From NCBI GenBank assembly GCA_009772965.1, contig WPAF01000001.1, forward strand, positions 78,639 to 142,638: a stretch of DNA of 64,000 nucleotides, in the 5' to 3' direction. Every line of letters starts with the position of its first letter. The first letter of the stretch is position 1. A model generated the notes under the pieces. The model made no database searches. It had not been told where the DNA came from and was given only the letters and a program-made list of their open reading frames with translations. The translations under genes were made by a program, and so were the position numbers. This document shows positions 9,542 through 41,803 of the stretch, one piece after another. This DNA comes from Candidatus Saganbacteria bacterium. GTDB lineage: Bacteria > Margulisbacteria > WOR-1 > XYC2-FULL-46-14 > WPAF01.

Positions 9542-9544
9542 AGG

Positions 9545-13598: not shown

Positions 13599-14300
13599 TT
13601 AATTAACCCTTTTTAGACGTTCAAATGCTTCGGCATATTTATATTTCTGTGCCTTTCCCCTCTTTTGTGCCAGTTCTTCTACTGCTTGAGGGGAAAAGGG
13701 ATGTGGATAATCCTGCAATTCACTTTCGTATGCTTTTAAAGCCTTTAATTTAACTTCAATAAAATCTGACACATTCTCCACATATTCAGCTTTAAATGTA
13801 TTTGCTGACTTAGGCGGCAAAATATCCATATTGCCAGGGATCTCAAAACAAAAAATAGTAGCGTTTTTAACAATTTGCCTGCCAGGTCGAAACGCAGTTA
13901 GAGTCGCCTCACAAACCACCCTATGATCTTTGTTTAAATCCCCCCAATGGTGCGTATAAACAATATCGGGAGCATTTTTTTCGGTAAGTTTCTCTACTCT
14001 TTTTACTATGTCCAATAAAGGCAGCGCATCCAAACGTTGATCCGGAAGAACAAAATAGCTGCAATTTTCTTTTTTTACTCCCAACAGATTTATAGCCTTA
14101 AAGAATTCATTTTTGCGCATACCTACGGATTTTTTATCTTGTTTTTTGAGCCTATTCGGAAAATAGTGACGAGAAGTTACTCCATCGCCAAAAACAATAA
14201 TACGTACCTCATCCCCTACCTGGATATGTTTGGCGATGGTTCCACCACAACCCAAGATTTCGTCATCAGGATGAGCTACTACAACCAATACTCTTTTCAT
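13599..14300 (-). CDS. PIG-L/LmbE family N-acetyl-sugar deacetylase
   Basis: VVVAHPDDEILGCGG signature and HWGDLNKDH. Confidence 0.85.
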   Translation of the reverse strand: MKRVLVVVAHPDDEILGCGGTIAKHIQVGDEVRIIVFGDGVTSRHYFPNRLKKQDKKSVGMRKNEFFKAINLLGVKKENCSYFVLPDQRLDALPLLDIVKRVEKLTEKNAPDIVYTHHWGDLNKDHRVVCEATLTAFRPGRQIVKNATIFCFEIPGNMDILPPKSANTFKAEYVENVSDFIEVKLKALKAYESELQDYPHPFSPQAVEELAQKRGKAQKYKYAEAFERLKRVN

Positions 14301-14301
14301 A

Positions 14302-15537
14302 TTATTTTCTCACGCTTTTATTGCCTTTGATATAATTCACTTTTGGCCTCATATTAATTACATCTGCGTCAATTTTCATATCCTTTAACTGATCCACTAT
14401 TTCTTTGTCATACATAGAAGCGACAATTATCAGATCTACAGGATCAGAAATCAATTGCTCGGGAGGATAAACCTTTAAATTATTATTAACAAAACACATA
14501 TCCCATTTTCTTTGATCAATATCTACAATATAGGAAATACGAGTAGCATCCAACCCATAAATCGGGAATAAATACCCGCCGAACCCACCCGCTCCCCAAA
14601 TGGCGATCTTTTTATCCTTTTTTATAAAAGGGTCAGTATGCTTTTTGAATTTTTTATGATTTCTCCCATATTCAAGAACAAAATTCTTTCCCAATCTATT
14701 TCCCGTATCTATTTTCACATCATGCGCTTTGCCCGTTTCAGCCGCAATAATAATCAGATTTTCGGGGGTCTTTTTATATTCAATCAATTTCAAACCGGAT
14801 CTTCTCAAAACCTCACAAACAGAAGAGATCGAAAACCCGTGAATATGTTGAAAATTAAATGATTCAAAAGAACCATTTTCTAAAAAATATTCAATATTCG
14901 GTGTCTCAAAAACGACCAGCCCTTTCTTTGTTAATACTTTTTTGACGTCCTTCAACAATTCAACAGGATATTCAACATGCTCAATAAAATGCCTAAAAAT
15001 TACAACGTCGAAATATGAATTATGGGCAATAAAATCCTGGCTTTTAAAATATCGCTTATACACTTTTATGCCGATTTCTTTTGCGATATCCGCCCCTTTG
15101 CTTGGATCACAGCCGCATACAAGAAAGTCTCTTTTAGATAGTTCCCTTAAAACATATCCGTCATAACAAGCAATTTCCAAAATATTTTTTAATTTGCCCT
15201 CAGCACAGATGGGGCTAACACTTTTATTAAACATGTCCAAGAACATATTTTCCCTTTTTTGGATAAACCCAGAAATAACGGCCGATGGATAATTATAAAA
15301 CTCGCTATAAATTGAATCCATTAACTTATCATTCGGCTTCATTGATTGAAACACATGGCCGCAATTAGTGCATTTTTTTACTTTTAAAGGCGCGTTAAGT
15401 TCCTTGATAGAATACCGTCTTAATATTTCTATTTTTTCTTCTTTTGAAACAGCAAAACCGATATAAGGGAATCGATCGGTTTGAAACAGCAAAGCTGATT
15501 TTTCGTTTTCACACACAGGGCATTTCATAAATTCCAT
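14302..15537 (-). CDS. SAM-dependent sugar C-methyltransferase type (Zn-ribbon + class I MTase + C-terminal domain)
   Basis: N-terminal CPVCEN...CTNCGH zinc ribbon, ILEIACYDGYVL MTase motif I, and C-terminal Rossmann-like IAIWGAGGFG, as in TylCIII-like C-methyltransferases. Confidence 0.75.
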   Translation of the reverse strand: MEFMKCPVCENEKSALLFQTDRFPYIGFAVSKEEKIEILRRYSIKELNAPLKVKKCTNCGHVFQSMKPNDKLMDSIYSEFYNYPSAVISGFIQKRENMFLDMFNKSVSPICAEGKLKNILEIACYDGYVLRELSKRDFLVCGCDPSKGADIAKEIGIKVYKRYFKSQDFIAHNSYFDVVIFRHFIEHVEYPVELLKDVKKVLTKKGLVVFETPNIEYFLENGSFESFNFQHIHGFSISSVCEVLRRSGLKLIEYKKTPENLIIIAAETGKAHDVKIDTGNRLGKNFVLEYGRNHKKFKKHTDPFIKKDKKIAIWGAGGFGGYLFPIYGLDATRISYIVDIDQRKWDMCFVNNNLKVYPPEQLISDPVDLIIVASMYDKEIVDQLKDMKIDADVINMRPKVNYIKGNKSVRK

Positions 15538-15548
15538 TTCGACTCTCC

Positions 15549-15776
15549 TTAAATTAATTTTTTCCCCAAAACATGAGCAATATCACCCAAATTATTAATT
15601 TGAAACATTTCATCAATTTCAAATTTAATAGAAAATTCTTTTTCTAAAGCCATAATTAAGCTTAAATGCCCCATTGAATCCCAAGCGGGAATATCAGCTG
15701 ACGTCCATCGCATATCTATTTTTCCATTATCAAATTTAAATGTCTCTCTAATAACTTTTTCTATACGCCTATCCAC
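15549..15776 (-). CDS. Acyl/peptidyl carrier protein
   Basis: 75 aa. The phosphopantetheine-attachment context WDSMGHLSLIMALE matches the DSxxxL motif. Confidence 0.75.
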   Translation of the reverse strand: MDRRIEKVIRETFKFDNGKIDMRWTSADIPAWDSMGHLSLIMALEKEFSIKFEIDEMFQINNLGDIAHVLGKKLI

Positions 15777-15796
15777 ACGCCTTCTCCTTCCTGATA

Positions 15797-17212
15797 TTAA
15801 TCATGGTTATCCGCCCTTTCTTTTAACATGCCTAATTCCTCATAAACTTTTAATCGAAAATCAATAATATCTTGTTTCTCTAATTTATACGGTTTAATGA
15901 AAGGCGTGTCGTTGGCATAATAAAAAGAGCCCGTATTATGCAAATTTGCCTGGTCAATTATCAATAAATTATTGGCGACGCATTCATCGTAAAGCTTTGT
16001 CCCTGGGAAAGGGGTGGCAAAACTAATAACCGCACGTTTCAGCTCTAATTGTTTTATCAATTCATAGGTTTCCTGCAATGTTTCGTGTGTTTCATTGGGA
16101 AATCCAACTATAAAAAATACGTTATAAGCCAATTTCGGATATTTTTTTATATTATTAAAGGCAGCAATTATATTCTCCTGCGTTAACCTTTTATTTATTG
16201 ACATCCTAATTTCCGGCGAACCGCTTTCAACCGCCAAACACGTCCTAACAAGCCCGGCATTTATAAGCGCTTCAATTACTTCTTCATCAATAGTATTAAG
16301 ATCAAGCCCATTTGGAGTGTCAAATTGAATATTTAGACCTTTACTAATAATTAAATTACACATTTCAATGGTTCGATTTTTATTTAATGTTAGATTGTCA
16401 TCCATAAAAGAAAAATAATGATGGTTTAGATGAAAATACAAATATTCCAACTCGTCAACCACATTAGAAGCTGAACGCATCCGATGCTTTCGTCCGTGTG
16501 CCAGGAACATGCTACAATAAGTACATTGTCGAGGACAACTTCGGCTGGAAAGGACGTAAAGGCTAAGATTGATCGGCAGCTTTCTAGGGTTGATCCATTT
16601 TGAAGTATTAAAATAATAATCTTTAATATTAACCAAGCTATAATCAGGGAAAGGGATGCCATCTATATCTTCAATGTATTTTTCTTTCTTATTTACCGAT
16701 ACCTCCCCATTGATCCGATAGGCCAGCCCATCTATACGGTTAAAACCGTTTATCTTATTTTCGATTGCATTGACCAATTCGATCAGGCTTGATTCGCTTT
16801 CCCCCTGCAAGATAAAATCGACACAGTCATATTCAGCAAGGATTTGCCGCGAAAATATAGTGGGATGAATCCCCCCAAAAACTATCGGAATAAGCGGATA
16901 GTCCACTTTTATTGATTTACCAATTGCGATCGCCGGGGAAAAACGGACAGAACAATGGATCGAGATACCGATTAAATCCGGCTTAAAATCCGAAATAATT
17001 TTTTGCATCTTTGATTTATAGTATTCCTCAAAATTAAATTTCGTTTTTTCAGATACAGCCGTGATTTGATCATTGCTGACATCAATAAATAAGACCTCAT
17101 GGCCATTTTTTTTCAAAGAAGATGAAAGATATAATATTCCCAAGGGAATATGCCTTTCTTCTGAGAAGATAAAATCGGGATTGTGAGGATTTATTAAAAG
17201 GATCTTAGCCAA
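15797..17212 (-). CDS. Cobalamin(B12)-binding-domain radical SAM enzyme (class B)
   Basis: N-terminal KILLINPHNP...PLGILYLSSSLKKNGHEVLFID B12-binding region and CPRQCTYC cluster motif. Confidence 0.85.
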   Translation of the reverse strand: MAKILLINPHNPDFIFSEERHIPLGILYLSSSLKKNGHEVLFIDVSNDQITAVSEKTKFNFEEYYKSKMQKIISDFKPDLIGISIHCSVRFSPAIAIGKSIKVDYPLIPIVFGGIHPTIFSRQILAEYDCVDFILQGESESSLIELVNAIENKINGFNRIDGLAYRINGEVSVNKKEKYIEDIDGIPFPDYSLVNIKDYYFNTSKWINPRKLPINLSLYVLSSRSCPRQCTYCSMFLAHGRKHRMRSASNVVDELEYLYFHLNHHYFSFMDDNLTLNKNRTIEMCNLIISKGLNIQFDTPNGLDLNTIDEEVIEALINAGLVRTCLAVESGSPEIRMSINKRLTQENIIAAFNNIKKYPKLAYNVFFIVGFPNETHETLQETYELIKQLELKRAVISFATPFPGTKLYDECVANNLLIIDQANLHNTGSFYYANDTPFIKPYKLEKQDIIDFRLKVYEELGMLKERADNHD

Positions 17213-18464
17213 CTTTTTTCTCCATTCTACCCTCCAATTTTGCTCTCATTTTGGGCAATACTGTGCCATATATCATAAGGGTTTCTTCGATAACTCTATC
17301 TGTATGCGCATAAGAAATCATATGCCATCCCGCGCTTAATATGCCATGTGCAGCAACTAGCTCAATCCAATACAAAAGGTCATCAGTGGGATCATAATTC
17401 AAATTATTTTTGTCAATAAAATTAATACCGAACCTGCAATCAAATCCTAATATTTCCATTCTGTCAGACAGATTGTATTTAACAATTAAACTTTTGATCC
17501 CTTCTCTAAGTTTCGCTCCTGATCTGGCTAACTGAGCAGGAACATCTGCTTGATCATAAAATGCAAGCACTGCTTTGGCGGCTGCCAGAGACAAAGTCTC
17601 TCCAGCATTAGTTAACGAAAAATAAACATCATTAAATTTAGACATAATTCCAGCCTTTCCTACTATAGCTGACAAAGGCATGCCATTGGCGATTGCCTTA
17701 CTAAAACACGATAAATCCGGGACAATATTAAACAATGCTTGCGCTCCACCCTTATGGAAGCGGAATCCTGTTACTACTTCATCAAAAATTAATACAACAT
17801 TATTATTTGTGGCTATTTCCCTTACTTTTTCAAGAAAATTATCCCTGGGCCATTCTTTAGCAGGAATTGGCTCCAAGATAATACAAGCAATATTATCTTT
17901 ATAATCTTTCAATAATTTCATCAGAAAATTAATATCATTAAAAACAAAACGATGCGATAATTCTCCTATGCATTTCGGTATGCCTCCATTTTTTGAAGTT
18001 TGACAAACATACCAATCCTGCCAGCCATGATAGCCGCAAAACAATATATGGTCTCTCCCAGTATAATAACGGGCCAGCCTCACCGCAGCAGAGGTAGCAT
18101 CATTGCCATTTTTACCAAATTTCACTTTTTCCGCGCTGGGAATTCTTTCAATTAACATCTCGGCAACCTGAATTTCTAATGGTGTTGGCAGAGAAAAAGA
18201 GATGCCTTTTTTTAATTGCTCGCTAATTGCCTTATTAACCACAGGATGATTATGCCCGAGAGTCATAGTCCCCAATCCAATAATATAATCAATATACTTA
18301 TTACCATCTACGTCCCAAGTATAGGCGCCATCACCTCTTACCAAACAAAAAGGCGTTCTGCCATTCCCAAACAATTGAACCTTGTTAAATGTTGAAGCGC
18401 TGGCTAAGGATTCCTGACTTCTTGCTAAATATTCATTACTGCTGGCCAAATTAGTATTCCCCAT
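17205..18464 (-). CDS. Class-III PLP aminotransferase (glutamate-1-semialdehyde 2,1-aminomutase-like)
   Basis: FDEVVTGFRF, the FSKAIANG Lys region, and GYHGWQDW. Confidence 0.85.
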   Translation of the reverse strand: MGNTNLASSNEYLARSQESLASASTFNKVQLFGNGRTPFCLVRGDGAYTWDVDGNKYIDYIIGLGTMTLGHNHPVVNKAISEQLKKGISFSLPTPLEIQVAEMLIERIPSAEKVKFGKNGNDATSAAVRLARYYTGRDHILFCGYHGWQDWYVCQTSKNGGIPKCIGELSHRFVFNDINFLMKLLKDYKDNIACIILEPIPAKEWPRDNFLEKVREIATNNNVVLIFDEVVTGFRFHKGGAQALFNIVPDLSCFSKAIANGMPLSAIVGKAGIMSKFNDVYFSLTNAGETLSLAAAKAVLAFYDQADVPAQLARSGAKLREGIKSLIVKYNLSDRMEILGFDCRFGINFIDKNNLNYDPTDDLLYWIELVAAHGILSAGWHMISYAHTDRVIEETLMIYGTVLPKMRAKLEGRMEKKVG

Positions 18465-18489
18465 TTATTATCATACCCCTTGATTTATC

Positions 18490-19317
18490 TCATAATAAGT
18501 CTTGTCGGTTATCTTTTCTAATAAAAATATATCCTTTGGTGAAATTATCTCCGTTAGAATCCAATTGATAATCAAGGCTTTTAAAATTGGATAAATCAAT
18601 TCTGGCATTCTCATTAAATTTTTCCAGCATAATAAAACCTATGCTTTTCACAAATTCGATCAATTCCTCTTCATTAAAAATAATAACGGGCAACCCTTTA
18701 TTGCCCTCCATGCAAAGAAGTGTTTTATATTCTTTATTCTGACCGGCAGTGACCCCGCAAAAATAAAGAACTTTGGGCTGAAAGGAATTGATTGTTTCTT
18801 TTAATGCCTCTTGATAATTTTCGAAAAATTGGAGAGCTTGACGAAAAAATAGAATATCTATTTTATTAATTTTTTTAACATCAGTATAAAAAGACAGGGT
18901 TGAATTGCTTTTATATTTTTCCTTTGCAATACTAACGAGTTCTGCAACATCCAAAACGTTCCATTTTACATTGTTGGGCGAGGATAAATATTTTTCAACC
19001 CCCCAAAAAACCTGGCCAACAGAACCGCCATAATCTAACACTTCAATTTTGCTCATGGATGAGAGCAAATTTATCAAAACAATCAATTTTGCAATGCTTA
19101 TATCTTGGAAAGTTTCTTTGGAATATAATTCGGCCCTTCTGAAAAAATATTCCGCATATTTATCAGATGCATAACCATTTATAATTAATTCACTGGGAAC
19201 ATCAGAAAATTCCGCATATACCATGCCGTTAAATTGATTATGACGCTTCAGTCCTTTTTTATTCAGCTTTTTGTACACTATTTTAACTTTTTCTCTTAAT
19301 CTATCAAAAATTGGCAT
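18490..19317 (-). CDS. Putative SAM-dependent methyltransferase (poorly characterised family)
   Basis: VLDYGGSVGQVF resembles MTase motif I. From memory the overall layout resembles the LIC12133-type family found in surface-glycan clusters. Confidence 0.4.
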   Translation of the reverse strand: MPIFDRLREKVKIVYKKLNKKGLKRHNQFNGMVYAEFSDVPSELIINGYASDKYAEYFFRRAELYSKETFQDISIAKLIVLINLLSSMSKIEVLDYGGSVGQVFWGVEKYLSSPNNVKWNVLDVAELVSIAKEKYKSNSTLSFYTDVKKINKIDILFFRQALQFFENYQEALKETINSFQPKVLYFCGVTAGQNKEYKTLLCMEGNKGLPVIIFNEEELIEFVKSIGFIMLEKFNENARIDLSNFKSLDYQLDSNGDNFTKGYIFIRKDNRQDLL

Positions 19318-20347
19318 TTTTCAACTTCCTATTTTTAGCAATTAAAATCGCATAGTCTATCGCATCCAACAAGCTTTTCTCGTCGGCAAGACCTTTCCCC
19401 GCTTTTCCAAAGGCAGTTCCGTGATCCACAGATGTTCTTATGATAGGCAATCCCATCGTAATGTTTACCCCCCCCACCGATTTCCACTTTTCCCCATCCC
19501 AGTCAAACCCATAAAACTTCAACGGGATATGCCCCTGATCATGATACATTGCAACGATAATATCGTATGTGCCGCTTTTACCTTTAGGGAAAATAGTATC
19601 CGGCGGTATTGGTCCCTCAACTAACAAACCTTCAGATTTTGCCCTTTGGATAGCGGGAATAATTTCTTTGATTTCCTCATCCCCCATAATACCTCCATCC
19701 CCCGAATGCGGATTCAAACCGGCAACTGCTATTTTAGGCGAAGAGATCCCCAATTGTTGGCAAGCATCAAAAGCTATTTTTATGGTTTCATAGACTCTAT
19801 CCGCTTTAATAAGATATACCGCTTTTCTAAGAGGAACATGAGTAGTAACATGTATCACTCGAAGATTATCATGTGCTAGAAGCATGGCATAATGTTTGGT
19901 TCCGGTTAATGCGGCCAGCATTTCGGTATGGCCTCGATATTTTTTTCCGTATCCAGCAAGATCAAATGATTCTTTATGGATCGGAGCAGTAACAATTGCA
20001 TCCACTTCTTTCTTTAAAGCTAATTCAATGGCCTTTTCTATATATTGACCAGCAGCTCTGCCGCACGCCTCGTTCACTTTCCCATATTTAAGGCTACTGA
20101 CATCAACATTATTTAGGTCACAAACATCAATGACCCCGGGTTTAAATCCGGCATCCGCAACAGCTTCAACACTATTTACTTTCAGGTCAAGATTGCTAAA
20201 TTTTATAGCCTCAAGCATAGCACTTCTATCTCCTATCACCAGAGGACTGCATTTTGAATATGTCTCCCTATTATGCAAAGCCTTAGAAATAATTTCAGAA
20301 CCGATCCCCGCCGGATCCCCCATAGTTATACAAATAATTGGTTTCAT
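19304..20347 (-). CDS. PdxA-family NAD-dependent 4-phospho-hydroxyacid dehydrogenase
   Basis: ITMGDPAGIGSEI N-terminal signature, GHTEMLA, and HDQGH metal ligands. Confidence 0.85.
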   Translation of the reverse strand: MKPIICITMGDPAGIGSEIISKALHNRETYSKCSPLVIGDRSAMLEAIKFSNLDLKVNSVEAVADAGFKPGVIDVCDLNNVDVSSLKYGKVNEACGRAAGQYIEKAIELALKKEVDAIVTAPIHKESFDLAGYGKKYRGHTEMLAALTGTKHYAMLLAHDNLRVIHVTTHVPLRKAVYLIKADRVYETIKIAFDACQQLGISSPKIAVAGLNPHSGDGGIMGDEEIKEIIPAIQRAKSEGLLVEGPIPPDTIFPKGKSGTYDIIVAMYHDQGHIPLKFYGFDWDGEKWKSVGGVNITMGLPIIRTSVDHGTAFGKAGKGLADEKSLLDAIDYAILIAKNRKLKNANF

Positions 20348-21123
20348 AGTTTTTCTCCTTTAAAAATTGCCAATAATTCGCCATGTATTTTACTGTTTGA
20401 TGCAACAACCTGTTTGGAATTCATACCACAGGGATGTCCGGAGAAGTCAGTTAATTCGCCGCCTGCCTCTGTTAAAATTACTATACCGGCTGCTATATCG
20501 CAAATCTTGGTTGCATTCCATACTCTTCCATCAATTTTGCCTGAAGCAATAAAGCATAGATCTCTGGTAGCTACCCCAAGGATCCTAGTGGTAAAAGCTC
20601 TCTCCGTCAATGTTTTATAATACTTAAAGGAATTTTCAGATAAATGAAACTGGTTATCATAGTTGACGATAGCCTTGGAAAGAACTCCATTGTCTGATAC
20701 GGAAATCGGTTCTCCATTACAAAAAGCTCCTTGCCCCCGCACTGCATAATATAATTCATTCTCCATAGGGAAATAGATAACTCCTAAATCAAATCTATCC
20801 CCTTCCATTAGAGCTATAGAGATGCCACTAAAAGGAAGACCTGCAATATAATTATGTGTGCCATCAATAGGATCGATGATCCAATTTTTGTCTCCCTTTA
20901 CATTCGAAAATCTTTTTTCTTCTGTAATAATTCCGCAAGAGGGGAAACCCCTACCCAATATTGCACATATCACTTCTTGAGATTTCATATCTACTTCTGA
21001 AACCATTTCCTTTGGAGATTTACGAATAATCCGATAATCTTTTTTAAAATTTGCTTTTAATATCTCACCCGCTGTCTTGGCCGCGTTAATAGCAATATCT
21101 AGGGCTTGATTGTCATCTTTCAT
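20344..21123 (-). CDS. Inositol monophosphatase-family phosphatase
   Basis: WIIDPIDGTHNY and ITEE motifs. 4-nt overlap with the PdxA-like gene. Confidence 0.85.
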   Translation of the reverse strand: MKDDNQALDIAINAAKTAGEILKANFKKDYRIIRKSPKEMVSEVDMKSQEVICAILGRGFPSCGIITEEKRFSNVKGDKNWIIDPIDGTHNYIAGLPFSGISIALMEGDRFDLGVIYFPMENELYYAVRGQGAFCNGEPISVSDNGVLSKAIVNYDNQFHLSENSFKYYKTLTERAFTTRILGVATRDLCFIASGKIDGRVWNATKICDIAAGIVILTEAGGELTDFSGHPCGMNSKQVVASNSKIHGELLAIFKGEKL

Positions 21124-22654
21124 TTATTATCACCTTGGACTTTTCTCTTAGATCTTTTTTCAGCAGCTTTCCCGAATGGGTTTGAGGAATGCTTGCAACT
21201 ATTTCAATCACTTTGGGGAGTTTAAGCGCGGATAAATACTTTTTGCAGTGTTCCAATATTTCTTCCGATTCTATTAAACAATTATCTCTTAAGACAATAA
21301 AGCTCTTTATTTCCTCGCCAAAGAGGTCGTCGGGCATTCCTATTGTGGCCGCTTCTTTCACAGCTGGATTCAACAATAAAACCTCATCAATTTCGCCTGG
21401 CATTACATTGGATCCGCCTTTGATTATTAAATCTTTTTTCCTGTCAACAAAATAGTAAATCCCCTGCTCGTTTTTATAGCCCAAGTCGCCCGTATGGAAA
21501 AAGCCGTTCCTCATAACTTCTTTATATAATTTTTCATTCTTGTAATATCCCACAAAGACATTTGCTCCCTTAACTACAATTTCCCCAATTTCATTTGGAG
21601 ACAACTCCCGATCATTCTCATCAACAATTTTTACTTCGTTCACATCCAATGGGACGCCAATTCTGCCAGGCTCCCAATCGGGTTTTCGTGGATCATCGAT
21701 ATGAGTGGGCCCTGTTTCAGATAAACCATAAAGGTTTGCCGTTTTTAACCCGAATTTCTTCTCAAATTCAATTTGGATGCTTTTCTGTAGAGGTGCTGAC
21801 CCGCAGCCAACAAACTTCATAGAGGAGACATCACAACCTTTTGTATCTTGGTAGATATTCAAAATTGAATATAAAACCGTGGGTACCACCTCCATATAGT
21901 TAACGCGTTCTTTTTGAATCAGCTCCCAGATCCTGTTCCTTATCTGCCAAAATGATTCTGCTAAAATCATTTTTCCGCCAGCATACATGCAGGGTAAAAA
22001 AGAGTAGTTTGTGGAAGCGGTATGTCCTAAAGGAAGAAATACAAGATGTACTTCATTATCATTCATAAAATCAAAGCCGCGGCAAACGGAACTAATATCA
22101 GCGATCATATTCTTATGAGAGAACAATACCCCTTTAGGGTCGCCGGTGGTCCCGGAAGAATAATACAAACATGCGGGACAATTTTCGTCGATTTCCACCC
22201 TTGCCCGCAAACTATCCGCATGGACTTCTAAACTTTTTTCAAACAACCTTTCTTCCCCAACCGGGACTTCCACAAAACTCGCCCGTTCCCCCGCAAACTC
22301 ATTAAATCTTCTAGCATCCACCAACACAATGCTTGGGCCAACATAGCTGATATTTTTTTTCACTTCTTCCTTATGAGAAGTAAACGGCATAGGATTAAAT
22401 ATCGCGCCAATTCTTAGCGCGGCAAAATATAAAAAACAATACTCGGGCGAGTTTTCAATGAGCGCGGTAATTCTATCCCCTCTTTCTATCCCTTTTGAAA
22501 GCAAATAATTCGAGGCTTTTTCAACAATTAGATTGAATTCTTTAAAGTAGTAACATCTTCCAGAACGCACATCAGATATAAAAACCTTATCAGGATTTAT
22601 TCTACTTTGATAATAAAGAACTTCGGAAAAATTCTTACAATCTTTAAGTTCCAT
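21113..22654 (-). CDS. AMP-forming adenylating enzyme (acyl-CoA/acyl-ACP ligase family)
   Basis: YYSSGTTGDPKGV AMP-binding motif, GYYKNE, TGDLGY, and a C-terminal SGKLLKKDL Lys. Confidence 0.9.
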   Translation of the reverse strand: MELKDCKNFSEVLYYQSRINPDKVFISDVRSGRCYYFKEFNLIVEKASNYLLSKGIERGDRITALIENSPEYCFLYFAALRIGAIFNPMPFTSHKEEVKKNISYVGPSIVLVDARRFNEFAGERASFVEVPVGEERLFEKSLEVHADSLRARVEIDENCPACLYYSSGTTGDPKGVLFSHKNMIADISSVCRGFDFMNDNEVHLVFLPLGHTASTNYSFLPCMYAGGKMILAESFWQIRNRIWELIQKERVNYMEVVPTVLYSILNIYQDTKGCDVSSMKFVGCGSAPLQKSIQIEFEKKFGLKTANLYGLSETGPTHIDDPRKPDWEPGRIGVPLDVNEVKIVDENDRELSPNEIGEIVVKGANVFVGYYKNEKLYKEVMRNGFFHTGDLGYKNEQGIYYFVDRKKDLIIKGGSNVMPGEIDEVLLLNPAVKEAATIGMPDDLFGEEIKSFIVLRDNCLIESEEILEHCKKYLSALKLPKVIEIVASIPQTHSGKLLKKDLREKSKVIINER

Positions 22655-22659
22655 TATTT

Positions 22660-23067
22660 TTATTTCTTCTCCTTTTCAACAAGTTCAACTAGTTCTTTTT
22701 CAGATGTATAAAGCCAAACTGTTAATTGATCCTTGTGTCCTTTACCAGGAACAGGCTCCCCAAATATAAGAGAGCCCTTTGCCCTTAAGGTTTTAATTGC
22801 TTCATGTATATCATCAACCTCAAAACAAAGATGATGCAACCCTCCACCCTGTGACAGAAACTTACTCACAGGAGAATCTTCACTAACCGGTTTTATTAGC
22901 TCTATGGTTAAATCCCGCCCAAGGCCCATTTCCACAAAACAAACCTCCACCTTTTGGATTGGATCTATGACCGGCTCATCCAATTTTGAAAAGCCAAAAG
23001 TGCTTTTGTAGTATTCAACCGCTTCTTCTAAATTACTTACGACCTTACCAATATGATGCAATCTCAT
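22660..23067 (-). CDS. VOC/glyoxalase-fold protein (methylmalonyl-CoA epimerase-like)
   Basis: MRLHHIGKVVSNLEEAVEYY and GGLHHLCFEVDDI. Confidence 0.7.
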   Translation of the reverse strand: MRLHHIGKVVSNLEEAVEYYKSTFGFSKLDEPVIDPIQKVEVCFVEMGLGRDLTIELIKPVSEDSPVSKFLSQGGGLHHLCFEVDDIHEAIKTLRAKGSLIFGEPVPGKGHKDQLTVWLYTSEKELVELVEKEKK

Positions 23068-24054
23068 TTAAAATATCTCCGTCGAATCACCCATGGTAAA
23101 ATACCAACTTTTTTTATCTTTAACTTCACCCGCATATTTAAATTCTTTGTTTAAACGAATAACAAGAGGAATTCTCGTAGCTTCCTTAATAAATCCTTTG
23201 CCTTCTAAGACCTGCTCGATGAGCCGACTGCCCCATAGCCAACAGGTAACCTCATCAACCTTTTGTTCGCTAAAAAAGCTTAAAGAACCATTAATAATCT
23301 TGGTTATGGTATCTTCATCATGAAGATCAGCAAAAATATCTATTATATGTCCCCTTAAAAGCTTATCCTCTCTATACAGCTTCAAAACCGAATAACCCTT
23401 AAGCTCACCATTAGCATAAACTCCAAATGGATAATACTTCCAATCTGGCCTTTCCAAATATCGCCAATTTAAATAAGCTTTATTTCTAACAACTACAATC
23501 TTATACTTTTCGGAACATAAATCCCAAAGCCGATCAAAATCATCATCAAATTCCTTGACCGGACGGAAAGAAGCTGAATCAGTAATATTTAACGTGCTTT
23601 TATCTATGGCCGGTCTTGTTATTTTCCAGGTATCAAACTCAATCAGATCCTCATATCCCATATGAGTTCTATGCACACGATAAGCTTTTTCATTTGGGAA
23701 ACCATATGTAAAAGGAATATTATTTTGTGCTGCCTCTTCGAATAATTTATCACCAACAAATTTCAACAGTCCCCTATTCTGATATTTTGGTTCGACCATA
23801 GCACCTATTGAATGTGAAGCGACCAATTCCTCATCAAAAACTTGCAGTCGATAAGGAACAACAGCAAAATGGGCAACAATATTATTTCCTTCTTCCATAA
23901 CCCAAATAAATGATTTTCCTGCCGGATTCTGATCGGAATACTTCCAGTACCAATTACTTAATTCCCTTCTATTCCAGGGATGTACTTCTAATCTTCGATC
24001 TAATTCCCAAAGTTTTATTTCGTCGCCTTCTTTATAGAGCCGTATTTTCATCAT
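23068..24054 (-). CDS. GNAT-family N-acyltransferase with an extra C-terminal domain
   Basis: IVAHFAVVPY...EPKYQNRGLLKFV matches the GNAT Q/RxxGxG/A-like motif. 328 aa. Abuts the pseI-like gene with no gap. Confidence 0.6.
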   Translation of the reverse strand: MMKIRLYKEGDEIKLWELDRRLEVHPWNRRELSNWYWKYSDQNPAGKSFIWVMEEGNNIVAHFAVVPYRLQVFDEELVASHSIGAMVEPKYQNRGLLKFVGDKLFEEAAQNNIPFTYGFPNEKAYRVHRTHMGYEDLIEFDTWKITRPAIDKSTLNITDSASFRPVKEFDDDFDRLWDLCSEKYKIVVVRNKAYLNWRYLERPDWKYYPFGVYANGELKGYSVLKLYREDKLLRGHIIDIFADLHDEDTITKIINGSLSFFSEQKVDEVTCWLWGSRLIEQVLEGKGFIKEATRIPLVIRLNKEFKYAGEVKDKKSWYFTMGDSTEIF

Positions 24055-25107
24055 TTATTCCAACATGCCTTCTTGAATTACATCTTCTTTATCAATATCT
24101 ACTTTTACTTTTCTGCCAACAATCAAGCCCAGATTCTTTGGTTCAATTCCGGTTCCAGGCCTGGTCATTTTTAGTTTCTCCCGACTCAACTGCTCACCTT
24201 TATTGATCCTGCATCTGGCTACAATACTTCTTCTTATTATCTTTCTGGCATCCAATTCCGCTTGAGACAAATTTCTTTGATAAGAGCCTAACGATTTTTC
24301 AACTTCTCTCACTGCTCTCACAAGTTCCTGCATGCCACTTGGTTCAAGTGCAAAAGGATGATCTGGACCTTCCATCTTTCGATCAAGAGTTATATGTTTT
24401 TCAATAATGCAGGCTCCCAAAGCTATGGAAGCCATTGCCATATAGTTATCAGGGCTGTGGTCAGAAAACCCTACCGGTAATCCAAAAGTCTTAATCAAGG
24501 TTACGATGTTCTTAAGATTTACCACTTCGGGATTGGGAGGATAACAAGATACGCAATGAAGCAGAGCAATTTGATCGTTTCCGTTCCTTAATATGGTTTC
24601 TACCGCTTCTTCTATTTCCCGTAAATAAGACATGCCGGTAGACAAAATAATAGGCTTTTTAAATTTAGCCAGCTCGCCTAAAAAATCCAAATAAGCAACA
24701 TCTATAGAAGCAATCTTAAAAACCGGAGGATCGAACTGCATGATAAACTCAGCATCCTTAATTGAGTGGACAGTAGAGAAAACATCCAATTCTTTATCCC
24801 TTGCATATTCAAACATTTCCTTAAACCATTCCCGCGGCATCAAAATCCGGTCTCTGGCAACCTCCCACCATGGCTGGTAGCCATAGTCCTTTTCATAGGC
24901 AACGTCACGGGTTGTAATTTTGCCGCTGAATACTTCTAATGGTTCATAAGTTTGGAACTTTATAGCATCAAAACCTGCATCCGATGCAGTATCAATCATC
25001 TTTCTGACAATTGTCTTGTCTAAATTATGATTAGAGCCTATCTCTGCAATAATATAGGTTGGATATTCTGGCTCGATTATTTTTTTATTGATCATTATTT
25101 TTTTCAT
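24055..25107 (-). CDS. pseI: Nonulosonic acid synthase (NeuB/PseI/LegI family) with C-terminal SAF domain
   Basis: IIAEIGSNHNLDKTIVRKMIDTASDAGFDAIKFQTY. C-terminal IVARCRINKGEQLSREKL forms the SAF domain. The Pse assignment rests on linkage with pseB/pseC/pseG-like genes. Confidence 0.75.
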   Translation of the reverse strand: MKKIMINKKIIEPEYPTYIIAEIGSNHNLDKTIVRKMIDTASDAGFDAIKFQTYEPLEVFSGKITTRDVAYEKDYGYQPWWEVARDRILMPREWFKEMFEYARDKELDVFSTVHSIKDAEFIMQFDPPVFKIASIDVAYLDFLGELAKFKKPIILSTGMSYLREIEEAVETILRNGNDQIALLHCVSCYPPNPEVVNLKNIVTLIKTFGLPVGFSDHSPDNYMAMASIALGACIIEKHITLDRKMEGPDHPFALEPSGMQELVRAVREVEKSLGSYQRNLSQAELDARKIIRRSIVARCRINKGEQLSREKLKMTRPGTGIEPKNLGLIVGRKVKVDIDKEDVIQEGMLE

Positions 25108-26723: not shown

Positions 26724-27631
26724 TGAAATAACCCCTCATAGATGCTATCAATTTTTGGAAAATCAGCTTTACTAGCTTTTTCTACAGCTGATTCTATTCT
26801 ACTTGCACACTTTTCACGTATTGAATTTTTTACATCTTTATCCAAACGAGCCCCTAAAATGGTCAGAGGGTCTTTATCTTTCCATCCTATTTCTTCTTCC
26901 CTGGTTCTATAATTACAATCATCGCTTTTACTGTGTCCACACTGTCGATAAGTATTTATAACTAAAAAATGCGGCCTTGACTGCTTTCTAACACCATCGG
27001 CAATCTTTTCAAAAGAGGAATAAATTACTTCAACATCGTTTGTATTCAATTCTTGTGCTTCTATGCCAAAAGCTTTTGCCCGATCAATCATGCTCCCTGC
27101 CACTCCACAGGAAATATGCGTGCTCATTGCATAATAATTATTTTCTAAAACATACACTATAGGCAGTTTCCAAAGTGAAGCCATATTTAAAGATTCATAA
27201 AGCACTCCTTCGCCTAAAGCTCCGTCACCAAAAAAAGATATTACAATTCTCTCGCTTTTCTTCAATTTTTCAGCCAATGCCATTCCGGTCGCAACTGCGG
27301 TCATACCGCCGGTAATTCCGTTGGCATAAAAATCCCCTTTGCATAAATGCTGACTCCCGCTGCGTCCCGCACATATCCCCGTAGCTTTTCCCATAAGTTC
27401 AGCCATTAATCCATCAACATCATCTGTAGAAGCAATAAAATGACCATGCCCCCTATGATTACTGGTAATAATATCGCCTTCGTTCATTGCCTGAGTTATG
27501 CCAACAGCAACAGCTTCTTGGCCGATACAAGCATGGGTGGTTCCAAAAAGTATCCCTTGAGTAAAAAGTTCTTCTATCTTTTCTTCAAAAAGTCTGATTA
27601 AAAGCATTTGCTCAAAGAATTTTTTTCTCAT
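26720..27631 (-). CDS. 2-oxoacid dehydrogenase E1 alpha subunit, lipoyl-linked set
   Basis: NHRGHGHFIA and GDGALGEGVLYESLNMASLWKLPIVYVLENN ThDP motif. Confidence 0.9.
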   Translation of the reverse strand: MRKKFFEQMLLIRLFEEKIEELFTQGILFGTTHACIGQEAVAVGITQAMNEGDIITSNHRGHGHFIASTDDVDGLMAELMGKATGICAGRSGSQHLCKGDFYANGITGGMTAVATGMALAEKLKKSERIVISFFGDGALGEGVLYESLNMASLWKLPIVYVLENNYYAMSTHISCGVAGSMIDRAKAFGIEAQELNTNDVEVIYSSFEKIADGVRKQSRPHFLVINTYRQCGHSKSDDCNYRTREEEIGWKDKDPLTILGARLDKDVKNSIREKCASRIESAVEKASKADFPKIDSIYEGLFQ

Positions 27632-40609: not shown

Positions 40610-40613
40610 AGAT

Positions 40614-41803
<1,190 letters not shown>

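What the first reader, a model, noticed from the sequence alone, without database searches (positions are those of the whole stretch)
13599..24054. Carrier-protein-based sub-cluster probably building an unusual N-acyl substituent for the nonulosonic acid
Seen: a contiguous, mostly overlapping gene run is read here in transcription order (descending coordinates). It starts with a GNAT acyltransferase that abuts pseI with no gap (23068-24054). Next come a VOC/methylmalonyl-CoA-epimerase-like protein, an adenylating enzyme (YYSSGTTGDPKGV), an IMPase-like phosphatase and a PdxA-like dehydrogenase. These are followed by a putative methyltransferase and a glutamate-1-semialdehyde-aminomutase-like aminotransferase. 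The run ends with a B12 radical SAM, a 75-aa ACP (WDSMGHL), a C-methyltransferase-type enzyme and a PIG-L deacetylase. Established: adenylating enzyme plus stand-alone ACP pairs load carboxylic acids for on-carrier tailoring. PIG-L enzymes remove N-acetyl groups from sugars to free the amine. GNATs transfer acyl groups to amines. Inference: an N-acetyl group on the sugar is removed and replaced by a custom acyl group that is aminated, methylated and possibly hydroxylated on the ACP. Known Pse/Leg derivatives carry such diverse N-acyl groups (3-hydroxybutyryl, glyceroyl, acetimidoyl and others), but this enzyme combination does not match a pathway I recognise.
Basis: partly seen in the sequence, partly recalled or inferred. 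Interest (0 to 1): 0.55.

Follow-up and report, generated by a model that had tools for sequence, protein, structure and literature searches.

The report
Pseudaminic acid N-acyl remodelling cassette
Eleven back-to-back genes inside a pseudaminic acid (bacterial sialic-acid-like sugar) operon form a conserved but undescribed cassette that most likely strips an N-acetyl group from the sugar and replaces it with a custom, carrier-protein-built acyl group.

Summary
All eleven ORFs exist at the stated coordinates on the minus strand, 14 nt of overlap to 25 nt of gap apart, and carry the stated domains and motifs.

The window is a Candidatus Saganbacteria MAG. The run lies in a Wza/Wzz polysaccharide locus whose PseB, PseC and PseG score above NCBIfam cut-offs.

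Comparative genomics supports the main interpretation and refines it. Relatives of the 328-aa tandem GNAT occur only in MAGs and metagenomes. All 37 loci with at least 10 kb of flank carry Pse genes.

- **Conserved core:** GNAT, a methylmalonyl-CoA-epimerase-like VOC, an ANL ligase, a phosphatase, a dehydrogenase, an ACP with invariant WDS, and PIG-L. The dehydrogenase always comes from a family acting on phosphorylated sugars: PdxA2-like here, mannitol-1-P-DH-like or GAPDH-like elsewhere.
- **Lineage-variable accessories:** the methyltransferases, the B12 radical SAM and the class-III aminotransferase.
- **Second acyltransferase:** a separate PseH-type or NeuD-type acetyltransferase is also present, so the big GNAT is an additional one.
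- **PIG-L partners elsewhere:** in other Pse loci PIG-L pairs with formyltransferases.

The acyl group's identity is unknown; I infer a phosphorylated C3-C4 sugar acid. No searched paper describes this cassette. I rate it a new variant of a known kind, interest about 0.55.

The parts
23068..24054 (-). Tandem (double) GNAT acyltransferase, 328 aa. It is the signature gene of the cassette and the proposed transferase that puts the custom acyl group on a Pse amino group.
   Evidence: Pfam Acetyltransf_9 and Acetyltransf_1. No NCBIfam hit, so it is not PseH TIGR03585, and no PDB sequence hit. AF2 model has pLDDT 93.7; the best Foldseek matches are Eis-like double-GNAT and N-myristoyltransferase folds. 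There are 120 homologues at 35-65% identity, all from MAGs or metagenomes. The Q92-x-x-G95 loop before helix 96-110 is conserved.
22660..23067 (-). VOC-superfamily protein resembling methylmalonyl-CoA epimerase, 135 aa. Proposed epimerase or isomerase acting at the carbon alpha to the thioester.
   Evidence: Glyoxalase_4, 78.6 bits. TIGR03081 at 83.8 bits, below its cut-off of 115, with the next model at only 34 bits. It lies immediately downstream of the GNAT in 56 of 83 loci.
21113..22654 (-). ANL-superfamily adenylating ligase, 513 aa. Proposed to activate the acid and thioesterify it to the ACP or to CoA.
   Evidence: AMP-binding plus AMP-binding_C. YYSSGTTGDPKGV and the C-terminal SGK lysine are present. 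Nearest solved structures are feruloyl-, oxalyl- and malonyl-CoA synthetases, E 1e-61 to 1e-56. Present in 34/37 well-flanked loci. It sits directly beside the ACP in L082 and in the GAPDH-like variant.
20344..21123 (-). Inositol-monophosphatase-family phosphatase, 259 aa. Proposed to remove the phosphate of the acyl precursor.
   Evidence: Inositol_P, 192 bits. DPIDGT motif present. Best PDB hits are IMPase and FBPase/IMPase at 150 bits, with CysQ at only 71 bits. Present in 22/37 loci.
19304..20347 (-). PdxA2-like NAD-dependent dehydrogenase, 347 aa. Proposed to oxidise a hydroxyl next to CH2-O-phosphate on a C4 acid.
   Evidence: PdxA, 356 bits. TIGR00557 at 355 bits, above its cut-off of 290. 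PDB scores are 283-265 bits to 4jqp, PdxA2 (2hi1) and D-threonate-4-P dehydrogenase (6e85), against 178 bits to E. coli PdxA. In other clades its place is taken by a mannitol-1-P-DH-like or a GAPDH-like gene.
18490..19317 (-). TIGR04325-family (LIC12133-type) methyltransferase, 275 aa. Accessory gene.
   Evidence: No Pfam hit. TIGR04325 at 105.2 bits, above its cut-off of 80. Found in only one related locus, L083.
17205..18464 (-). Class-III (GSA-aminomutase-like) aminotransferase, 419 aa. Accessory gene, proposed to convert a keto group to an amine on the acyl chain.
   Evidence: Aminotran_3, 170 bits. PDB top hits are GSA aminomutases; the beta-ketoacyl-ACP-aminating domain of mycosubtilin synthase also matches. 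Present in 12/37 cassette loci. The 16 aminotransferases that lie inside cassettes form their own NJ clade, apart from the 42 full-length aminotransferases of ordinary Pse loci among the 80 scanned.
15797..17212 (-). B12-binding radical SAM enzyme, 471 aa. Accessory gene, a probable methylase of an unactivated carbon.
   Evidence: B12-binding plus Radical_SAM. All NCBIfam hits are below cut-off: BchE-like and P- or C-methyltransferase families. Homologues at >=50% query coverage were found in only 6 of 46 cassette loci with >=8 kb of flank.
15549..15776 (-). Stand-alone acyl carrier protein, 75 aa.
   Evidence: PP-binding, 25.4 bits, above its cut-off of 20.8. W-D-S is invariant in 24/24 family members and the His at +3 is present in 23/24. 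Present in 27/37 loci. An ACPS-type phosphopantetheinyl transferase lies next to it in L082.
14302..15537 (-). TcaB9-like methyltransferase with a zinc ribbon, a class-I MT domain and a C-methyltransferase C-terminal domain, 411 aa. Frequent accessory gene, usually next to the ACP.
   Evidence: Methyltransf_23 at 67 bits and Methyltransf_14 at 29 bits, above its cut-off of 23.5. PDB hits are TcaB9 and sugar 3-C-methyltransferases, E 2e-12. Present in 21/37 loci, often as two copies flanking PseI.
13599..14300 (-). PIG-L/LmbE-family N-deacetylase, 233 aa. Proposed to remove an N-acetyl group from a Pse intermediate.
   Evidence: PIG-L, 93.4 bits. AHPDDE motif present. Weak NCBIfam hits to BshB and MshB. 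Present in 23/37 cassette loci. In other Pse loci it pairs with a formyltransferase or with WbqC.
24055..25107 (-). Context: nonulosonic acid synthase (PseI/NeuB family), abutting the GNAT.
   Evidence: NeuB plus SAF. PseI TIGR03586 at 295.7 bits and NeuB at 316.2 bits, both below their cut-offs.
27628..28725 (-). Context: fusion of a lipoyl domain with a NeuD/PglD-type LbH acyltransferase. It is the candidate for the first, PseH-like N-acylation. E1 alpha, a lipoate ligase and E1 beta at 25121-27631 flank it.
   Evidence: Biotin_lipoyl, PglD_N and Hexapep. TIGR03570 at 169.3 bits, above its cut-off of 160.8. Context genes; the family and its recurrent E1 neighbours.
28747..30482 (-). Context: PseG (28747-29757) and a PseF-like cytidylyltransferase (29754-30482).
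   Evidence: PseG TIGR03590 at 167 bits, above its cut-off of 153.55. PseF TIGR03584 at 94 bits, below its cut-off of 205.7.
39449..41588 (-). Context: PseC (39449-40609) and PseB (40614-41588), the start of the UDP-route Pse pathway.
   Evidence: PseC TIGR03588 at 522.7 bits (cut-off 423.5). PseB TIGR03589 at 544.1 bits (cut-off 407.75).
11852..13597 (-). Context: 581-aa protein directly downstream, a possible transferase for the finished sugar.
   Evidence: No Pfam hit. Weak TIGR04331 (LIC12162-family transferase) hit at 46.9 bits, far below its cut-off of 225.

Best explanation
The region is an accessory N-acyl remodelling cassette embedded in a UDP-route pseudaminic acid (Pse) operon of a polysaccharide locus.

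**Shown**
- The gene content and domains are as described.
- The cassette is tightly and repeatedly linked to PseB, PseC, PseG and PseI.
- The genes divide into a conserved core and variable accessories.

**Inferred mechanism**
1. The ANL ligase adenylates a small oxygenated acid. This is most likely a phosphorylated C3-C4 sugar acid such as a 4-phosphotetronate or 3-phosphoglycerate. The ligase thioesterifies it to the holo-ACP (possibly to CoA).
2. The IMPase-type phosphatase removes the phosphate.
3. The PdxA2-like dehydrogenase oxidises the hydroxyl beta to the thioester. On a thioester the product cannot decarboxylate.
4. The methylmalonyl-CoA-epimerase-like VOC epimerises or isomerises the now acidic C2.
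5. In this lineage the cassette-specific class-III aminotransferase turns the keto group into an amine. The TIGR04325 methyltransferase, the TcaB9-like methyltransferase and the B12 radical SAM add methyl groups.
6. PIG-L removes the N-acetyl group inherited from UDP-GlcNAc (the future N5). The other amine is acylated by the NeuD/PglD-type enzyme upstream.
7. The tandem GNAT transfers the finished acyl group to the freed amine.

The product would be a Pse carrying one unusual short polar N-acyl group (hydroxy, keto or amino, and methylated). It is then CMP-activated and built into a Wza/Wzz-exported polysaccharide.
For: **Gene content.** ORFs, domains and motifs are confirmed.

**Pse pathway.** PseB, PseC and PseG score above NCBIfam cut-offs.

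**Synteny.**
- GNAT relatives in three distant lineages (an Altiarchaeota MAG, a JGI contig and Aminicenantes) carry NeuB-GNAT-VOC-ligase-IMPase-PdxA-ACP-PIG-L. L082 also has an ACPS phosphopantetheinyl transferase.
- L083 repeats the window's order up to the TcaB9-like methyltransferase, where the locus ends.
- Among 83 loci, 37 have at least 10 kb of flank. In those 37 the counts are: ligase 34, PseG 31, PseI 31, a dehydrogenase of one of three phosphosugar families 30, VOC 28, ACP 27, PIG-L 23, IMPase 22.
- All 37 have at least one Pse gene.

**A second acyltransferase.** The marine clade has PseG fused to a small GNAT. The window and L092 have a NeuD-type LbH.

**PIG-L as amine-freeing step.** PIG-L pairs with a formyltransferase or WbqC in other Pse loci. 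A preprint links a deacetylase plus formyltransferase to free-amine and N-formyl nonulosonic acids in Kuenenia.

**Phosphorylated precursor.** The evidence is PdxA2-like scores, a mannitol-1-P-DH-like replacement, a GAPDH-like replacement in the order ligase-ACP-GAPDH-like, and the always-present phosphatase.

**Small charged acid.** The ligase's nearest structures include oxalyl- and malonyl-CoA synthetases.

**Cassette-specific amination.** The aminotransferases inside cassettes form a separate clade of 16.

**ACP.** The serine motif is invariant.
Against: - There is no biochemical or structural-glycan evidence, and every relative is uncultured.
- Core genes are not universal: PIG-L 23/37, IMPase 22/37, ACP 27/37. 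Some absences may be due to contig ends.
- Window-clade loci lack a small PseH-type GNAT, so the big GNAT could itself perform the PseH step.
- The GNAT keeps a CoA-type Q-x-x-G loop, so it may use acyl-CoA. That would leave the ACP's role open.
- The canonical PdxA2 reaction on a free acid decarboxylates to DHAP, which would destroy the acyl unit. The thioester-bound reading is my inference.
- The three dehydrogenase families may mean different acyl groups rather than one shared chemistry.
- The TcaB9-like methyltransferase resembles NDP-ketosugar C-methyltransferases and may modify the sugar.
- The class-III aminotransferase family also occurs in ordinary Pse loci that lack the cassette.
Confidence: 0.6

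Rival explanations
1. The tandem GNAT replaces PseH. It puts the custom acyl group, as acyl-CoA or acyl-ACP, on the 4-amino group of UDP-4-amino-4,6-dideoxy-AltNAc (the future N7) in place of acetyl. PIG-L acts independently, for example to leave N5 as a free or methylated amine.
For: The GNAT occupies the classical PseH position, directly after PseG (38 loci) or beside PseI. Window-clade loci have no small PseH-type GNAT. Nonulosonic acids with a free amine are reported in a preprint. PIG-L is missing from 14 of 37 loci while the GNAT is always present.
Against: The marine clade keeps a PseH-like GNAT fused to PseG in addition to the tandem GNAT. The window and L092 have NeuD/PglD-type LbH acetyltransferases that can do the first acylation. 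The GNAT does not match the PseH model.
Confidence: 0.17
2. The cassette follows mycothiol or bacillithiol logic. PIG-L deacetylates the sugar. The ANL ligase, with or without the ACP, directly forms the amide between an (amino) acid and the freed amine. The tandem GNAT then N-acetylates an amino group of the newly attached residue, giving N-acetyl-aminoacyl substituents.
For: The enzyme triad PIG-L, ATP-dependent ligase and tandem GNAT parallels MshB/MshC/MshD (established knowledge of mycothiol biosynthesis, from memory). The tandem-GNAT fold is confirmed. N-acetyl-aminoacyl groups on Pse are mentioned in the abstract of PMC3068675.
Against: The amine-introducing aminotransferase is present in only 12/37 loci while the GNAT is universal. 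The ligase groups with acyl-CoA synthetases, not amino-acid-activating enzymes. The reading gives no role to the VOC, the phosphatase or the dehydrogenase.
Confidence: 0.1
3. The cassette acts on something other than a Pse nitrogen. It might O-acylate or otherwise decorate the nonulosonic acid or another sugar of the polymer, or make an unrelated lipid or secondary metabolite that merely sits in the locus.
For: The window encodes other sugar pathways: a second DegT, several SDR epimerases/dehydratases and a GT2. The TcaB9-like methyltransferase suggests chemistry at the sugar level. L083 also carries an FkbH-ACP-MBOAT set typical of O-acylation.
Against: In dozens of loci the cassette is inserted between PseG and PseI of otherwise minimal Pse operons, with no other sugar pathway nearby. 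GNAT plus PIG-L is amine chemistry. No PKS, FAS or NRPS genes are present.
Confidence: 0.08

Closest known systems
ACP, AMP-ligase, Fe-ADH and LuxE/LuxC cassettes in Pse and flagellin glycosylation islands (Aeromonas group II FGIs, enterobacterial FGIs). From memory, these are the same gene types as RfbK-N, which make the 3-deoxy-L-glycero-tetronyl N-acyl group of Vibrio cholerae O1 perosamine.
   Same: A stand-alone ACP plus an adenylating ligase is embedded in an amino-sugar or nonulosonic acid locus and is presumed to build a non-acetyl acyl substituent. PMC7874193 and PMC4875605 list such genes. I saw one directly in a Francisellaceae Pse locus, L022.
   Different: The window has no Fe-ADH, LuxC, LuxE or FabG. 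Instead it has a tandem GNAT, an MMCE-like VOC, an IMPase, a PdxA2-like dehydrogenase and PIG-L. The two cassettes share only the ACP and ligase types.
Deacetylase plus formyltransferase pairs in nonulosonic acid loci (Ca. Kuenenia stuttgartiensis Leg-type cluster, SugarBase preprint 10.64898/2026.04.20.719630)
   Same: A deacetylase inside a nonulosonic acid cluster exposes an amine that is then left free or given a different acyl group. I found PIG-L next to formyltransferase genes in 6 of 12 PIG-L-bearing Pse loci.
   Different: There the new group is a one-carbon formyl taken from a folate donor. Here a seven-gene machinery builds the donor.
FkbH-type glyceryl-ACP and methoxymalonyl-ACP pathways of polyketide biosynthesis (from memory)
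   Same: The logic matches: a glycolytic phospho-acid is loaded on a dedicated ACP, dephosphorylated, oxidised by dedicated dehydrogenases and methylated while tethered.
   Different: No FkbH homologue is in the window. Loading would be by an ANL ligase, the phosphatase is IMPase-type rather than HAD, and the acyl group would end up on a sugar amine through a GNAT rather than entering a PKS.
Mycothiol biosynthesis MshB, MshC and MshD (from memory)
   Same: It combines a PIG-L deacetylase, an ATP-dependent ligase and a tandem-GNAT acyltransferase acting in turn on one amino-sugar nitrogen.
   Different: MshC is a Cys-tRNA-synthetase-like enzyme with no carrier protein, and the acceptor is GlcN-inositol. 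Only the chemical logic is shared.
Canonical PseH (small GNAT) and PglD/LegH (LbH) N-acetyltransferases of the Pse, Bac and Leg pathways
   Same: They N-acylate the diamino-sugar precursor of a nonulosonic acid from a thioester donor and are encoded next to PseG and PseI.
   Different: The window GNAT is a 328-aa double GNAT with no match to the PseH model. In many loci it coexists with a PseH-like or NeuD-like enzyme.

Membership tests
UDP-route pseudaminic acid biosynthesis locus | PseB, the inverting UDP-GlcNAc 4,6-dehydratase, and PseC, the aminotransferase | tested here: met
   TIGR03589 at 544.1 bits (cut-off 407.75) and TIGR03588 at 522.7 bits (cut-off 423.5).
UDP-route pseudaminic acid biosynthesis locus | PseG, the UDP-sugar hydrolase | tested here: met
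   TIGR03590 at 167 bits, above its cut-off of 153.55.
UDP-route pseudaminic acid biosynthesis locus | PseI synthase and PseF cytidylyltransferase at equivalog level | tested here: inconclusive
   PseI at 295.7 bits (cut-off 340.25), with the NeuB model slightly higher at 316.2 bits (cut-off 399.65). PseF at 94 bits (cut-off 205.7). The family-level Pfam hits are clear.
PseH (TIGR03585) N-acetyltransferase | A small GNAT that matches the PseH equivalog model | tested here: not met
   The 328-aa GNAT has no NCBIfam hit at E<=1e-3 and has a double-GNAT fold.
Acyl carrier protein | PP-binding domain with the conserved phosphopantetheine-attachment serine | tested here: met
   PF00550 at 25.4 bits, above its cut-off of 20.8. 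The WDS serine is invariant in 24/24 members.
Acyl carrier protein | Actual phosphopantetheinylation and loading by the ligase | not testable with these tools
   Only indirect evidence exists: an ACPS gene lies next to the ACP in L082, and the ligase and ACP are adjacent in L082 and in the GAPDH-like variant. No phosphopantetheinyl transferase was recognised in the window.
ANL adenylate-forming ligase | AMP-binding N- and C-terminal domains, the SSGTTG(x)PKG motif and the catalytic C-terminal lysine | tested here: met
   PF00501 at 253.8 bits and PF13193 at 55.6 bits. YYSSGTTGDPKGV and ...HSGKLLKK are present.
Methylmalonyl-CoA epimerase (TIGR03081) | Score above the equivalog cut-off | tested here: not met
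   83.8 bits against a cut-off of 114.95. It is a member of the VOC superfamily (Glyoxalase_4, 78.6 bits), and the epimerase model is by far its best hit.
PdxA (4-hydroxythreonine-4-phosphate dehydrogenase) | Equivalog score and closest similarity to true PdxA | tested here: inconclusive
   TIGR00557 at 355 bits, above its cut-off of 290. However, the PDB comparison puts it nearer PdxA2 and D-threonate-4-P dehydrogenase (283-265 bits) than E. coli PdxA (178 bits). NF002891 scores 322 bits, below its cut-off of 583.
PIG-L/LmbE N-deacetylase | PIG-L domain with the metal-binding HPDDE motif | tested here: met
   PF02585 at 93.4 bits, above its cut-off of 28.2. AHPDDE is at residues 10-15.
RfbK-N / LuxCE-type ACP cassette of glycosylation islands | Fe-ADH plus LuxE acyl-protein synthetase and LuxC reductase alongside the ACP and ligase | tested here: not met
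   No such domains were found in any window ORF scanned. They are present in the comparison locus L022.
TcaB9/TylC3-type NDP-sugar C-methyltransferase | Zinc-ribbon N-terminus, class-I MT core and the C-methyltransferase C-terminal domain | tested here: inconclusive
   Methyltransf_23 at 67 bits and Methyltransf_14 at 29.2 bits (cut-off 23.5). A Cys-rich N-terminus gives only a weak rubredoxin-like hit. The PDB matches to TcaB9 reach only 50 bits. The substrate is not testable here.

The most novel reading that the evidence does not exclude
The cassette defines an undescribed and widely distributed biosynthetic route. It is found in CPR-like and Cyanobacteria-related Saganbacteria, Aminicenantes, Acidobacteriota, Omnitrophota, Fibrobacterota, an Altiarchaeota MAG, and very low-GC marine plankton.

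In this reading a phosphorylated sugar acid is captured on a dedicated ACP and is dephosphorylated, oxidised and epimerised there. In some lineages it is also aminated and C- or N-methylated. A new family of tandem GNATs then installs it on N5 of pseudaminic acid after PIG-L deacetylation.

This would yield a whole class of nonulosonic acids with polar C3-C4 N-acyl groups that no structural study has yet seen. In the same operon, a PDH-type E1 and lipoyl arm feeds a second acyl group directly to an LbH sugar acyltransferase without acetyl-CoA.
Probability: 0.35. Interest if true: 0.7.

Novelty: new variant of a known kind. Interest (0 to 1): 0.55.

Why it matters
Nonulosonic acids sit at the outer tip of bacterial surface glycans. 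Their N-acyl groups determine charge, antigenicity and phage or immune recognition.

The enzymes that install anything other than acetyl or acetimidoyl are largely unknown. PMC5378307 states that knowledge of these enzymes is scarce.

This cassette offers a concrete and testable gene set of seven core genes; the smallest natural version seen is the Aminicenantes-type locus L084. It recurs across many uncultured phyla and in marine plankton.

Solving it would do three things:
- assign function to a new tandem-GNAT family, about a dozen 50%-identity clusters scoring 277 bits or more within a superfamily of 898 clusters at E<=1e-30;
- explain the odd presence of PdxA-, IMPase- and epimerase-like genes in glycan loci;
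- provide enzymes for making new CMP-nonulosonic acids.

Tried and rejected
- **Source contig.** I looked for it through the aminotransferase and found only a 1.8-kb Logan contig. The GNAT search later identified a Saganbacteria MAG.
- **Aminotransferase as anchor.** I used it for the single genome scan. It proved to be a general companion of Pse loci, and those loci mostly lack the cassette. This was useful as a control but cost the only genome-contig scan, so I could not search for cultured carriers.
- **PDB sequence search for the GNAT.** It found nothing. Fold search gave only generic double-GNAT folds, so no donor or acceptor specificity could be derived.
- **Literature searches.** I tried pseudaminic plus ACP, glutamate-1-semialdehyde, pdxA, lipoyl, glyceroyl and Cj1295, and tetronate plus perosamine plus ACP.
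  - None found a description of this cassette.
  - The pdxA hits concern housekeeping PLP supply in Campylobacter and Helicobacter. I rejected them as an explanation because the gene here is PdxA2-like and is swapped for other dehydrogenases in sister cassettes.
  - 'Lipoyl' in PMC4875605 means lipid acylation, not lipoic acid.
- **Distant GNAT relatives.** Contexts of P0131 and P0142 were on contigs too short to be informative.
- **IMPase as a PAP (CysQ-type) phosphatase serving the phosphopantetheinyl transferase.** I considered this and judged it unlikely, because IMPase/FBPase score 150 bits against 71 bits for CysQ.
- **Ligase specificity pocket.** I did not attempt a prediction. The tools return no model coordinates, and I could not verify pocket residues of the reference enzymes from memory.

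Full report
**Observation**

Neighbouring genes are 14 nt of overlap to 25 nt of gap apart. The GNAT (23068-24054) abuts both the VOC gene and the NeuB-family synthase (24055-25107) with zero gap.

Pfam and NCBIfam confirm every assignment:
- Acetyltransf_9 GNAT.
- Glyoxalase_4 VOC. Its best NCBIfam model is methylmalonyl-CoA epimerase at 83.8 bits, below the cut-off of 115.
- AMP-binding ligase containing YYSSGTTGDPKGV.
- Inositol_P phosphatase.
- PdxA.
- A protein without a Pfam hit that passes the TIGR04325 methyltransferase cut-off (105 against 80 bits).
- Aminotran_3, with GSA-aminomutase models as best hits.
- B12-binding radical SAM.
- A 75-aa PP-binding protein containing WDSMGHL.
- A Methyltransf_23 plus Methyltransf_14 protein.
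- A PIG-L deacetylase with AHPDDE.

**Setting**

The GNAT is 100% identical to a protein of a Candidatus Saganbacteria MAG.

The window from about 0.7 to 44.8 kb is one co-directional glycan locus that begins with Wza and Wzz. To the right lie housekeeping genes: RecG, AlaS, DnaB and PheST. The sugar is therefore destined for an exported polysaccharide rather than for flagellin.

PseB (544 bits, cut-off 408), PseC (523, cut-off 424) and PseG (167, cut-off 154) pass NCBIfam equivalog cut-offs. The PseF-like and PseI/NeuB-like genes are clear at family level but fall below equivalog cut-offs.

Between PseG and PseI lie E1 alpha, a lipoate-protein ligase, E1 beta, and a fusion of a lipoyl domain with a NeuD/PglD-family LbH acyltransferase (TIGR03570 at 169 bits, cut-off 161).

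**Is the run a unit, and is it tied to Pse?**

*Control scan with the aminotransferase.* I first anchored on the aminotransferase. Its 80 best relatives in species-representative genomes (40-48% identity) sit in ordinary Pse loci with the order PseB-PseC-aldo/keto reductase-PseF-aminotransferase-PseG-PseI. NeuB is within 10 kb in 69 of 80 and PseC in 64 of 80. These loci almost never carry the ligase, ACP, VOC, IMPase or PdxA genes. The same arrangement is described, without a function, for Aeromonas group I flagellin glycosylation islands (PMC7874193).

*Scan with the GNAT.* Its homologues (120 clusters, 35-65% identity) come only from MAGs and metagenomes.
- Three contexts from unrelated lineages show the same neighbours: NeuB-GNAT-VOC-ligase-IMPase-PdxA-ACP-PIG-L. 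These are an Altiarchaeota MAG, a JGI contig and Aminicenantes. The Altiarchaeota locus adds an ACPS phosphopantetheinyl transferase next to the ACP.
- L083 repeats the window's order through the TIGR04325-like gene, aminotransferase, radical SAM, ACP and TcaB9-like methyltransferase.
- A metagenome scan with a GNAT alignment gave 80 more loci.
- I built family HMMs from these loci and searched six-frame translations. Counts for the 37 loci with at least 10 kb of flank are in the table below.

| Gene | Loci out of 37 |
|---|---|
| Ligase | 34 |
| PseG | 31 |
| PseI | 31 |
| VOC | 28 |
| ACP | 27 |
| PIG-L | 23 |
| IMPase | 22 |
| TcaB9-like methyltransferase | 21 |
| Aminotransferase | 12 |

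- All 37 have at least one Pse gene and 34 have two or more. The VOC gene lies directly downstream of the GNAT in 56 of 83 loci.
- Typical marine order: PseB-PseC-PseF-PIG-L-PseG-GNAT-VOC-ligase-dehydrogenase-IMPase-(Zn-ADH-aminotransferase)-methyltransferase-ACP-PseI-methyltransferase.

The run is therefore a real, Pse-linked cassette. Its conserved core is GNAT, VOC, ligase, phosphatase, dehydrogenase, ACP and PIG-L. The methyltransferases, B12 radical SAM and aminotransferase are lineage-variable accessories.

**Clues to the chemistry**

1. *The dehydrogenase is exchangeable, always within phosphosugar families.*
   - The PdxA type occurs in 9 of 37 loci (GC 35-52%). It scores closer to PdxA2 and D-threonate-4-phosphate dehydrogenase (283-265 bits) than to E. 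coli PdxA (178 bits).
   - In 18 of 37 loci (median GC 24%) a mannitol-1-phosphate-5-dehydrogenase-like gene takes its place.
   - In 3 of 37 loci a GAPDH-like gene does so, in the order ligase-ACP-GAPDH-like.
   - Together with the conserved IMPase, which scores 150 bits to IMPase/FBPase and only 71 to CysQ, this points to a phosphorylated sugar-derived acid as the acyl precursor.
2. *The ligase.* Its nearest solved relatives include oxalyl- and malonyl-CoA synthetases. This fits a small acid with a second negative charge.
3. *The VOC protein.* It is epimerase-like. Such an enzyme needs an acidic proton alpha to a thioester, and oxidation by the dehydrogenase would create exactly that.
4. *The ACP.* Its WDS motif is invariant in 24/24 members.
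5. *The GNAT.* It is a confident double-GNAT fold (pLDDT 93.7), like Eis and N-myristoyltransferase. It retains a Q-x-x-G loop in the N-terminal domain.
6. *A second acyltransferase.* In the marine clade, PseG carries a C-terminal small GNAT domain. The window and L092 carry NeuD-type LbH enzymes. The tandem GNAT is therefore a second acyltransferase.
7. *PIG-L partners.* In Pse loci without the cassette, PIG-L sits beside a formyltransferase (6 of 12) or WbqC (4 of 12). A 2026 preprint links a deacetylase plus formyltransferase to free-amine and N-formyl CMP-nonulosonic acids in Kuenenia.
8. *The aminotransferase.* The 16 aminotransferases that lie inside cassettes form a clade of their own in a midpoint-rooted NJ tree without bootstrap. 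This clade is separate from the 42 full-length aminotransferases of ordinary Pse loci and from three upstream-type copies in cassette loci. This allows a cassette-specific role such as aminating a keto-acyl chain.

**Most likely mechanism (inferred, confidence about 0.6 for the outline)**

1. The ligase loads a phosphorylated C3-C4 hydroxy acid on the ACP.
2. The phosphatase, the dehydrogenase and the VOC tailor it.
3. In this lineage the aminotransferase, two methyltransferases and the B12 radical SAM decorate it further.
4. PIG-L removes the GlcNAc-derived N-acetyl group (the future N5).
5. The tandem GNAT installs the new acyl group.

Rival readings:
- The GNAT replaces PseH and acylates N7 (0.17).
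- The cassette follows a mycothiol-like deacetylate, ligate, acetylate logic (0.10).
- The cassette targets something other than a Pse nitrogen (0.08).

Weak points:
- There is no biochemistry and there are no cultured carriers.
- Several core genes are not universal.
- The canonical PdxA2 reaction on a free acid would decarboxylate it.
- The GNAT may use acyl-CoA.
- The TcaB9-like methyltransferase may act on the sugar.

**Comparison with the known**

ACP and ligase sets in Pse and flagellin islands are documented as annotations: ACP, AMP-synthetase, FabG, LuxE and LuxC (PMC7874193, PMC4875605). I saw that type directly in a Francisellaceae Pse locus. From memory, it corresponds to the RfbK-N tetronate genes of V. 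cholerae O1.

The window cassette shares only the ACP and ligase types with it. It lacks Fe-ADH, LuxC and LuxE. FkbH-type glyceryl-ACP pathways and mycothiol biosynthesis are analogies of logic, not homologues.

None of the searches found a description of this gene set. PMC5378307 states that knowledge of enzymes that modify nonulosonic acids is scarce.

**Verdict**

I rate the cassette a new variant of a known kind, with interest about 0.55. The tandem-GNAT family is compact: about a dozen 50%-identity clusters score 277 bits or more, within a superfamily of 898 clusters at E<=1e-30. It is nevertheless phylogenetically very widespread.

Noticed in passing
window 25121-28725 (-): E1 beta, an LplA/B-type lipoate ligase, E1 alpha, and a fusion of a lipoyl domain with a NeuD/PglD-type LbH sugar acyltransferase lie between PseG and PseI. 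It reads like a pyruvate-dehydrogenase-type E1 and lipoyl arm that hands an acyl group directly to a sugar acyltransferase, with no E2 core and no acetyl-CoA. The fusion family is large (449 hits at E<=1e-10). It recurs next to E1 alpha and beta in another Pse locus (L167) and next to a fused E1 alpha-beta. No description was found in a pseudaminic plus lipoyl paper search.
   Followed up: partly
window 1544-3552 and 6573-8551 (-): Two further E1 alpha/beta pairs have no lipoyl partner. They lie among SDR epimerases/dehydratases (5576-6622, 8552-10477) and a 668-aa B12 radical SAM (3573-5579). They may form a two-carbon branch on a keto-sugar; from memory, AviB1/AviB2 of avilamycin work this way.
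   Followed up: no
window 3573-5579, 15797-17212, 30479-31852, 34148-35725 (-) and 10855-11820 (+): A single glycan locus holds four B12-binding radical SAM enzymes and one SPASM radical SAM. The SPASM gene is the only plus-strand gene and lies next to a small HTH_17 gene at 10474-10707. This is an unusually high load of radical chemistry for a sugar cluster.
   Followed up: no
window 31849-34131 (-) and 11852-13597 (-): A 760-aa ORF has no Pfam hit and lies in the only stretch of the window with positive AT skew (+0.17). A 581-aa ORF has only a weak LIC12162-family transferase hit (46.9 bits, cut-off 225). Both are candidate polymerases or Pse transferases.
   Followed up: partly
L002-L081 (species-representative genomes): A class-III (GSA-aminomutase-like) aminotransferase, usually with an aldo/keto reductase, is a very common unexplained insert in otherwise canonical Pse operons across many phyla. 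The order is PseB-PseC-AKR-PseF-aminotransferase-PseG-PseI. Aeromonas papers list it without a function.
   Followed up: partly
L119, L120, L141, L116: A stripped-down cassette variant has the order ligase-ACP-GAPDH-like-(PseF)-PIG-L-PseG/PseH-GNAT-PseI, followed by two TcaB9-like methyltransferases. It has no VOC and no IMPase. The gene set would fit a glycerate-derived, doubly methylated acyl group, but this is speculation.
   Followed up: partly
L083 4218-7840: The closest syntenic relative also carries an FkbH_N protein, an 86-aa ORF and an MBOAT gene upstream of NeuB. This is a second, Dlt-like carrier system that would suit O-acylation of the same glycan.
   Followed up: no
L064 11272-16287: A magnetotactic Nitrospirae MAG has a distant version of the module in a Pse locus: a 25%-identical tandem GNAT, a radical SAM, a VOC, a 551-aa ORF without a Pfam hit, and an ACP.
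   Followed up: partly
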